Of a stretch of 4,893 nt of DNA, positions 4,540 through 4,572 are shown piece by piece (position 1 is the stretch's first letter; each line of letters begins with the position of its first letter). The notes below the pieces were generated by a model. The model saw only the letters and a list, made by a program, of their open reading frames with translations. It searched no databases and was not told the DNA's origin. Both the position numbers and the translations under genes were made by a program. This stretch comes from a virus (Duplodnaviria; Heunggongvirae; Uroviricota; Caudoviricetes): the IMG/VR virus record IMGVR_UViG_2548876958_000007. One strand, given 5' to 3'.

Positions 4540-4572
4540 ATCTTAAGAAATGGAACAAACAAGTTACAGCAA
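4540..4572 (-). promoter_or_regulatory. Candidate pRE (CII-activated leftward promoter): TTGC-N6-TTGT around the -35 and a -10-like TAAGAT
   Basis: Minus-strand TTGCTGTAACTTGT (plus 4559..4572, inside the first codons of cII), then 13 nt, then TAAGAT (plus 4540..4545). Mirrors the lambda pRE layout (TTGC-N6-TTGC, about 12 nt, then a TAAGTA-like -10) as I recall it. Confidence 0.5.

What the first reader, a model, noticed from the sequence alone, without database searches (positions are those of the whole stretch)
4540..4572. pRE-like CII-dependent antisense promoter with a TTGC-N6-TTGT site inside the cII start
On the minus strand, TTGCTGTAACTTGT followed 13 nt later by TAAGAT reproduces the lambda pRE layout, with CII-binding direct repeats flanking a poor -35 and a -10 near the cII start codon. 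The second repeat is TTGT rather than TTGC. This implies CII-activated leftward transcription through cro into cI and its downstream 113-aa gene, which would tie expression of that accessory gene to the establishment of lysogeny as well as its maintenance.
Basis: partly seen in the sequence, partly recalled or inferred. Interest (0 to 1): 0.4.

Follow-up and report, generated by a model that had tools for sequence, protein, structure and literature searches.

The report
Known-type CII-dependent pRE promoter
This is the ordinary lysogeny-establishment promoter (pRE) of a 933W/phi24B-type lambdoid prophage, lying backwards inside the start of its cII activator gene; its TTGC-N6-TTGT site has the same form as the site annotated for phage P22, so it is real but already known.

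Summary
On the minus strand, 4572-4540 reads TTGC-TGTAAC-TTGT, then 13 nt, then TAAGAT. The cII ATG is at 4550. The composite pattern is expected 0.02 times per window.

The interpretation as a lambda-like, CII-activated pRE is strongly supported. The boxes sit at cII nucleotides +10 to +23, with an A2/T6 -10-like hexamer 13 nt further on. This holds in 20 of 21 distinct CII-family loci from about a dozen enterobacterial genera, including lambda and P22. In the 21st, an extra codon moves the boxes to +13 and the hexamer moves with them. Box bases at third codon positions never vary, while neighbouring codons vary freely.

The TTGT half-site is not new. The C1 site annotated in the P22 record is TTGC-N6-TTGT. 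The same site is annotated in VT1-Sakai and epsilon34, and was noted in print for phi24B. The 933W and phi24B sequences are identical to the window here.

The 113-aa gene (DUF3024, PADLOC PDC-S43) follows cI with no terminator, so pRE read-through is plausible but inferred. In 933W and phi24B I found no matching sites antisense in Q or upstream of 933W int.

Verdict: real, functional by strong inference, already known, low interest.

The parts
4569..4572 (-). Promoter-distal CII box, TTGC
   Evidence: Invariant in 21 of 21 distinct CII-family loci. Formed by codon 7 positions 2-3 plus codon 8 positions 1-2. Codon 7 is always AGC (17 of 17 in the 933W-type subfamily) or CGC (lambda, P22).
4563..4568 (-). 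Poor -35 hexamer, TGTAAC, between the two boxes (2 of 6 matches to TTGACA, 17-nt spacer to the -10)
   Evidence: Read from the sequence. Not picked up by the sigma-70 scan.
4559..4562 (-). Promoter-proximal CII box, TTGT (a TTGC variant; complement of Thr-4 codon ACA plus the first base of codon 5)
   Evidence: TTGT is also found in 933W, phi24B, HK022, Shigella 75/02, E. albertii, epsilon34 and P22. TTGC is found in lambda, phage 21, VT1-Sakai, GF-2, phiEt88 and others.
4540..4545 (-). -10 hexamer, TAAGAT, 13 nt downstream of the proximal box, lying between the cII Shine-Dalgarno and the ATG
   Evidence: At the equivalent position in homologues, A2 is present in 17 of 19 and T6 in 19 of 19 unique sequences. 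Close relatives carry TACTAT, TATGAT or TAATAT.
4533..4533 (-). Predicted pRE transcription start (about 7 nt past the -10; equivalent to lambda 38343, quoted from memory)
   Evidence: Inference from spacing only. Not tested.
4550..4849 (+). cII, the cognate activator (99 aa)
   Evidence: Pfam PF05269 Phage_CII, 118 bits. Lambda CII structure 1XWR, E 2.5e-6. 97 of 99 residues identical to phi24B CII.
4184..4411 (+). cro, which the pRE transcript would cross in antisense
   Evidence: ORF, HTH families, annotated as cro in 933W.
3398..4105 (-). cI repressor, the main target of the pRE transcript
   Evidence: ORF, Peptidase_S24 plus HTH_3, 933W cI annotation.
2996..3337 (-). 113-aa DUF3024 gene 60 nt downstream of cI, probably co-transcribed
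   Evidence: PF11225, 108.7 bits. PADLOC PDC-S43, E 7.2e-42. No terminator-like site between cI and this gene. The phi24B homologue vb_24B_13c is reported as expressed in lysogens.
2945..2973 (-). Weak hairpin (GGUCAC-AGAA-GUGCGGCC) followed by U6, just past the DUF3024 gene at the mosaic junction; a possible partial terminator
   Evidence: Fold: part of a -11.4 kcal/mol structure, z -0.52, so not significant. Homology to 933W ends at 2952.
1770..1787 (-). Strong intrinsic terminator, equivalent to the tM annotated in 933W; likely end of the cI operon
   Evidence: searches (6 G-C pairs plus a T run; -12.4 kcal/mol), and alignment to the 933W tM.

Best explanation
The site is the establishment promoter pRE of a 933W/phi24B-type lambdoid prophage. 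By analogy with lambda CII, CII made from pR early after infection binds as a tetramer to the two direct repeats, TTGC (4572-4569) and TTGT (4562-4559). These straddle a poor -35 hexamer, TGTAAC. CII recruits and stabilises sigma-70 RNA polymerase on the -10 hexamer TAAGAT (4545-4540). Leftward transcription starts near 4533. It runs antisense through nutR and cro, then in sense through cI and very probably the DUF3024 gene behind it. This gives the burst of repressor that establishes lysogeny and damps Cro. Shown here: the sequence, its register, its conservation at the DNA level, and the presence of a CII-family activator. Inferred: CII binding, the start site, and read-through into the 113-aa gene.
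For: (1) The motif is exact, and the composite pattern is expected 0.02 times per window. (2) The register is the same in the other 20 distinct CII-family loci compared, from Escherichia, Shigella, Salmonella, Edwardsiella, Erwinia, Pantoea, Pectobacterium, Mixta, Rosenbergiella, Winslowiella, Atlantibacter and Pseudescherichia. The boxes lie at cII +10 to +23 and an A2/T6 hexamer lies 13 nt further on. (3) In Pseudescherichia an extra codon moves the boxes to +13 and the hexamer moves with them. (4) Selection acts on the DNA. Codon 4 is always GCA or ACA and codon 7 is always AGC (17 of 17), whereas codons 5, 6, 8-10 and 12-15 vary synonymously. Lambda (ANKRN) and P22 (TSTRK) encode different residues but keep the boxes. 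(5) The P22 record annotates 'RE; activated by P22 C1 protein' and a C1 binding site that reads TTGCGAGTGCTTGT, with the same 33-nt span. (6) VT1-Sakai annotates a 'CII protein binding site' at the homologous 14 nt, and epsilon34 does likewise. (7) The activator is present: PF05269 at 118 bits, and the recognition-helix residues S42 and R46 are invariant across lambda, P22 and this family. (8) 933W and phi24B, both known temperate phages, carry the identical 33 nt.
Against: There is no direct transcript or binding data for this sequence or for 933W/phi24B pRE in the literature I could search. The bare TTGC-N6-TTGY motif occurs three times in the window, which is not above chance. 933W and phi24B show no second well-placed site at Q or at 933W int. 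The motif is therefore not corroborated by a regulon in these phages. One IMG/VR relative (L003) has a degraded hexamer, TACCTA, at the -10 position.
Confidence: 0.87

Rival explanations
1. The motif is only a by-product of a conserved CII N-terminal peptide (T/A-S-Y-S-K) and has no function as DNA.
For: The boxes lie entirely in coding sequence. Within the 933W-type subfamily, residues 4-8 are well conserved.
Against: Lambda and P22 have different residues there but keep both boxes in register. Box bases at synonymous third positions are invariant while neighbouring third positions vary. The non-coding -10-like hexamer upstream of the ATG keeps A2 and T6 and tracks the boxes when a codon is inserted.
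Confidence: 0.04
2. The site is a real CII binding site whose main role is negative. CII bound there, together with convergent transcription, throttles pR read-through into cII-O-P and cro expression, rather than supplying cI. cI would come mainly from pRM.
For: The boxes lie in the path of pR transcription and the transcript is antisense to cro. Antisense damping of cro by pRE is established lambda biology (own knowledge). phi24B is reported to have measurable cII transcript even in lysogens.
Against: This does not exclude the pRE role; in lambda both effects coexist. The conserved -10 at a fixed distance argues for productive initiation.
Confidence: 0.06
3. It is a chance match with no function.
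For: TTGC-N6-TTGY alone is at chance frequency in the window. Two other copies, at 920-933 and 4230-4243, have no -10.
Against: The composite is expected 0.02 times per window. Its positional identity with lambda and P22 pRE, and its conservation across the 21 distinct loci compared, cannot be chance.
Confidence: 0.01

Closest known systems
Bacteriophage P22 PRE with its C1 binding site (annotated in NC_002371)
   Same: Half-sites of the same form, TTGC-N6-TTGT. The same 13-nt distance to the -10, the same 33-nt span, and the same position at nucleotides +10 to +23 of the activator gene on the antisense strand.
   Different: The spacer and -10 sequences differ: GAGTGC and GAACAT in P22, TGTAAC and TAAGAT here. 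P22 C1 is only 27% identical to this CII. The genes downstream of the repressor also differ.
Bacteriophage lambda pRE (CII, TTGC-N6-TTGC)
   Same: Same register, orientation and spacing, a poor -35, and a -10 between the cII Shine-Dalgarno and the ATG. The same cI-cro-cII gene order, and an accessory gene behind cI (rexAB in lambda).
   Different: The proximal box is TTGC in lambda and TTGT here. The -10 is AAGTAT in lambda and TAAGAT here. CII is 33% identical. Lambda also has pI and paQ sites (own knowledge), whereas no equivalents were found in 933W or phi24B.
933W / phi24B / VT1-Sakai / HK022 / phage 21 cII-pRE module
   Same: 933W and phi24B carry the identical 33 nt. VT1-Sakai annotates the homologous 14 nt as a 'CII protein binding site'. 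A phi24B paper states that the repeat carries a single nucleotide change (PMC4651098).
   Different: Phage 21 and VT1-Sakai have TTGC, not TTGT, and TAATTT as the -10. HK022 has TACTAT. The window differs from 933W only outside this module: a P63C-domain ORF replaces the RuvC-like and stk genes.

Membership tests
Lambda/P22-type CII(C1)-dependent pRE promoter | Two 4-bp direct repeats, TTGC-N6-TTG(C/T), centred on the -35 region | tested here: met
   TTGC TGTAAC TTGT at 4572-4559 on the minus strand. The TTGT form is the one annotated at P22 PRE.
Lambda/P22-type CII(C1)-dependent pRE promoter | A poor -35 hexamer between the repeats, and a -10-like hexamer 13 nt after the proximal repeat | tested here: met
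   TGTAAC matches 2 of 6, with a 17-nt spacer. TAAGAT matches 4 of 6, including A2 and T6. The site is absent from the sigma-70 scan. The same spacing is seen in all 21 loci.
Lambda/P22-type CII(C1)-dependent pRE promoter | Located in the first codons of the activator gene, antisense, and pointing through cro to the repressor gene | tested here: met
   The boxes are at cII +10 to +23. The gene order is cI(-) cro(+) cII(+).
Lambda/P22-type CII(C1)-dependent pRE promoter | Conserved as DNA, independently of the encoded peptide | tested here: met
   Box third-codon positions are invariant while neighbours vary. Different residues in lambda and P22 go with the same boxes. The -10 tracks the boxes after a codon insertion.
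Lambda/P22-type CII(C1)-dependent pRE promoter | Transcription that starts here only in the presence of CII, and CII protection of the repeats | not testable with these tools
   This needs 5'-RACE, reporter assays or footprinting. I found no such data for 933W-type pRE in the searchable literature.
CII transcriptional activator family (Pfam PF05269) | Full-length match to the Phage_CII profile, with an HTH and the C-terminal degradation tag region | tested here: met
   PF05269 at 118 bits, covering residues 1-92 of 99. Lambda CII 1XWR/1ZPQ/8IGR, E 2.5e-6. The C-terminus TNKKRP...ERSxQIQMxF is shared with lambda.
Lambda-like CII regulon (pRE plus pI plus paQ) | Further CII sites upstream of int and antisense within Q | tested here: not met
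   This could not be tested on the window itself, which has no int or Q. The first 50 kb of 933W and of phi24B each hold only 2 exact sites: pRE and a site in cro without a -10. The chance expectation, computed for 933W, is 6.8. Allowing one mismatch, none lies antisense in Q or on the int strand upstream of 933W int. phi24B has one 1-mismatch candidate, TTGA-N6-TTGT-N13-GATAAT, at 52-65(+), about 170 nt upstream of its int.

The most novel reading that the evidence does not exclude
In the 933W/phi24B lineage the CII regulon may have shrunk to pRE alone, with no pI or paQ sites. The pRE burst may also co-express, with cI, a candidate anti-phage defence gene (DUF3024 / PADLOC PDC-S43). That gene sits behind at least two unrelated cI alleles. 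If so, a cell acquires superinfection defence at the moment it commits to lysogeny, as lambda does with rexAB.
Probability: 0.25. Interest if true: 0.3.

Novelty: already known. Interest (0 to 1): 0.1.

Why it matters
It matters little beyond correct annotation. The result fixes the pRE of this prophage and shows that TTGC-N6-TTG(C/T) is a natural polymorphism of the CII/C1 site, not a deviation. It defines the likely cI operon: cI, then DUF3024, with possible read-through to the P63C ORF as far as the tM-like terminator. The modest points of interest are side issues. No pI or paQ-type sites were found in 933W or phi24B. A candidate defence gene is coupled to the repressor operon.

Tried and rejected
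1. Bare-motif statistics. TTGC-N6-TTGY alone is not enriched: 3 matches against 0.91 expected. The other two copies, 920-933(+) and 4230-4243(+), have no -10 at the right distance and were dismissed as chance.
2. Search for pI and paQ equivalents in 933W and phi24B. Nothing convincing was found, apart from a 1-mismatch candidate upstream of phi24B int.
3. Rfam scan of the window. It returned only sub-threshold hits: a truncated cIII thermometer at 1-21(-) and a spurious ToxT match.
4. The Retallack et al. 1993 PNAS paper on C1/CII site specificity could not be retrieved, so nothing is taken from it.
5. The search for related loci with a 9-sequence alignment that included lambda and P22 failed because there was no conserved stretch. 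It was repeated with 6 sequences.
6. The hairpin plus U6 after the DUF3024 gene. Its fold energy is not better than shuffled sequence, so it is listed only as a possible weak terminator.
7. PADLOC gave no hit for the P63C or Nmad5 ORFs.

Full report
**What the window is**

The 4893-bp window is the immunity region of a lambdoid prophage of the 933W/phi24B (Stx-phage) type. The ORFs are:
- N at 915-1298(-)
- a 330-aa ORF at 1797-2789(-)
- a 113-aa ORF at 2996-3337(-)
- cI at 3398-4105(-)
- cro at 4184-4411(+)
- cII at 4550-4849(+)
- the start of O at 4872

Megablast finds hundreds of Stx and other lambdoid phages at 95-99% identity over parts of the window, but none covers 80% of it. Against 933W, homology covers 2952-4893 (DUF3024 gene, cI, cro, cII) and 864-1787 (N, nutL, tM). 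The segment 1788-2951 is a different module.

Pfam assigns the following:
- cII: PF05269 Phage_CII, 118 bits
- cI: Peptidase_S24 plus HTH_3
- the 113-aa protein: DUF3024
- the 330-aa ORF: a P63C domain
- the 227-aa ORF (230-913, scanned as 207 aa from 853): Nmad5

**Checking the observation**

The minus strand reads TTGC (4572-4569), TGTAAC, TTGT (4562-4559), 13 nt, then TAAGAT (4545-4540). The cII ATG is at 4550.

The bare TTGC-N6-TTGY motif is at chance frequency: 3 matches against 0.91 expected. The composite with a TAnnnT hexamer 13 nt downstream occurs once against 0.02 expected.

The hexamer between the boxes, TGTAAC, matches TTGACA at 2 of 6 positions. The generic sigma-70 scan therefore does not list the site. 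This fits an activator-dependent promoter.

**What it is: comparative evidence**

I lined up the 5' ends of cII homologues from several sources:
- annotated phages: 933W, VT1-Sakai, HK022, phage 21, Shigella 75/02, Edwardsiella GF-2, Erwinia phiEt88, epsilon34, lambda and P22
- 15 loci from one-genome-per-species contigs

After removing duplicates, 21 distinct loci were compared, including the window. In 20 of them the antisense strand carries TTGC-N6-TTG(C/T) at gene positions +10 to +23, with a hexamer 13 nt further on. Among 19 unique box-to-hexamer sequences, that hexamer has A at position 2 in 17 and T at position 6 in all 19.

Three findings show the constraint acts on the DNA and not on the peptide.
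- Lambda (MVRANKRN) and P22 (MELTSTRK) encode different residues but keep both boxes.
- In the 17 933W-type sequences, codon 4 is always GCA or ACA and codon 7 is always AGC. Codons 5, 6, 8-10 and 12-15 vary synonymously.
- In a Pseudescherichia prophage an extra codon shifts the boxes to +13. The -10-like hexamer (GATAAT) keeps its 13-nt distance from the boxes, not from the ATG.

Among 80 close IMG/VR relatives the boxes never change, although flanking bases do. The -10 varies only among TAAGAT, TACTAT, TATGAT and TAATAT. One contig (L003) is an exception and reads TACCTA.

**The TTGT half-site**

The proximal box alternates between TTGC and TTGT.
- TTGC (Ala-4, GCA): lambda, phage 21, VT1-Sakai, GF-2, phiEt88 and the Pantoea/Pectobacterium group.
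- TTGT (Thr-4, ACA): the window, 933W, phi24B, HK022, Shigella 75/02, E. albertii, epsilon34 and P22.

The alternation does not follow CII type. Phage 21 CII is 91% identical to the window's CII yet has TTGC.

The P22 reference record annotates 'RE; activated by P22 C1 protein' and a 'P22 C1 protein' binding site. That site reads TTGCGAGTGCTTGT and has the same 33-nt promoter span. TTGC-N6-TTGT is therefore an established form of the site.

Other records and papers describe the same thing.
- The VT1-Sakai record annotates the homologous 14 nt as a 'CII protein binding site'.
- The epsilon34 record and paper speak of 'TTGCN6TTGC/T sites' at PRE and PaQ (PMC2629481).
- Veses-Garcia et al. [quoted passage not shown]
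- A 2025 paper names TTGCN6TTGT as the C1 site of a P22-like phage (PMC12111858).

phi24B CII is identical to the window's at 97 of 99 residues, and its pRE sequence is identical.

**Mechanism**

The following is inferred from the lambda and P22 paradigm, which is established knowledge. The lambda CII structures are 1XWR, 1ZPQ and 8IGR.

CII binds the two direct repeats that straddle the weak -35 and helps RNA polymerase use the -10 TAAGAT. Transcription starts near 4533 and runs leftward, antisense to nutR and cro, then through cI. The HTH recognition-helix residues S42 and R46 are invariant across lambda, P22 and this family, which is consistent with a shared DNA specificity.

**Downstream genes**

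Only 60 nt separate cI from the 113-aa gene, with no hairpin plus T-run between them. The same gene follows an unrelated cI allele in other contigs, for example L007. Its phi24B homologue vb_24B_13c is reported as expressed in lysogens. Co-transcription with cI is therefore likely, and a contribution from pRE is a reasonable inference. Lambda rexAB behaves this way (own knowledge).

Past this gene there is a weak hairpin plus U6 at 2973-2945(-), at the mosaic junction. Its fold is not better than shuffled sequence. The strong terminator at 1787-1770(-) corresponds to the tM annotated in 933W.

The window has no int or Q, so I scanned the first 50 kb of 933W and of phi24B.
- Each has only two exact TTGC-N6-TTGY sites: pRE and a plus-strand site in cro that has no -10. 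The chance expectation, computed for 933W, is 6.8.
- Allowing one mismatch, nothing lies antisense in Q or on the int strand upstream of 933W int.
- phi24B has a single candidate, TTGA-N6-TTGT-N13-GATAAT, at 52-65(+), about 170 nt upstream of its int.

The statement in PMC4651098 that the changed repeat is found 'in the same locations' is therefore reproduced for pRE only.

**Verdict**

The feature is already known: it is annotated or described in close relatives, and the TTGT form is the one annotated at P22 PRE. Interest is low.

Noticed in passing
window 2996-3337 (-): The 113-aa DUF3024 protein matches PADLOC candidate defence family PDC-S43 over its full length (E 7.2e-42). The gene lies directly behind cI here, in 933W and phi24B, and behind an unrelated cI allele in L007 and similar IMG/VR contigs. 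This is a rex-like position.
   Followed up: partly
window 1788-2951: This is a mosaic replacement relative to 933W. The RuvC-like gene, stk and a small ORF are replaced by one 330-aa ORF (311 aa from the ATG at 2732) with a P63C domain. It is preceded by a roughly 200-bp AT-rich spacer (2790-2995) that holds promoter-like hexamers. It may have its own promoter.
   Followed up: partly
window 230-913 (-): The ORF downstream of N encodes an Nmad5 (nucleotide modification associated domain 5) protein, 240 bits. 933W has a different gene at this place.
   Followed up: no
window 4795-4825 (-): A strong hairpin plus T-run lies antisense in the 3' end of cII (-16.4 kcal/mol, z -4.47). It is at the position of the oop RNA terminator annotated in P22.
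   Followed up: partly
window 4230-4243 (+), inside cro: A second exact TTGC-N6-TTGT (TTGCGAAGGCTTGT) lies on the rightward strand and is conserved in 933W and phi24B. No -10-like hexamer follows it (GGGCTG). It is probably chance. A third copy at 920-933(+) also lacks a -10.
   Followed up: partly
L092 (933W) and L109 (phi24B), first 50 kb: Exact TTGC-N6-TTGY sites are fewer than chance predicts (2 in each genome; 6.8 expected, computed for 933W). None is antisense in Q or upstream of 933W int. phi24B has TTGATTTTGGTTGT-N13-GATAAT at 52-65(+), upstream of int at 236-1405. The CII regulon may be reduced in these phages.
   Followed up: partly
window ~4520-4545 and IMG/VR loci L003-L082: Many relatives align with the window at high identity only from 4535 rightwards. 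Upstream they carry an HK022-like leader with TACTAT as the -10. A recombination boundary therefore lies next to the predicted pRE start, so the boxes travel with cII while the transcribed cro-cI module is exchangeable.
   Followed up: partly
L102 (Mixta mediterraneensis prophage) 401-440: The cII 5' end carries three TTGC boxes in 10-bp phase, at gene positions +10, +20 and +30, instead of two.
   Followed up: no
window 1-21 (-): The window starts at the cIII start codon (ATG at 8-6 on the minus strand). Rfam gives a truncated, sub-threshold match to the lambda cIII thermoregulator RF01804 (25.6 bits, E 0.011).
   Followed up: no
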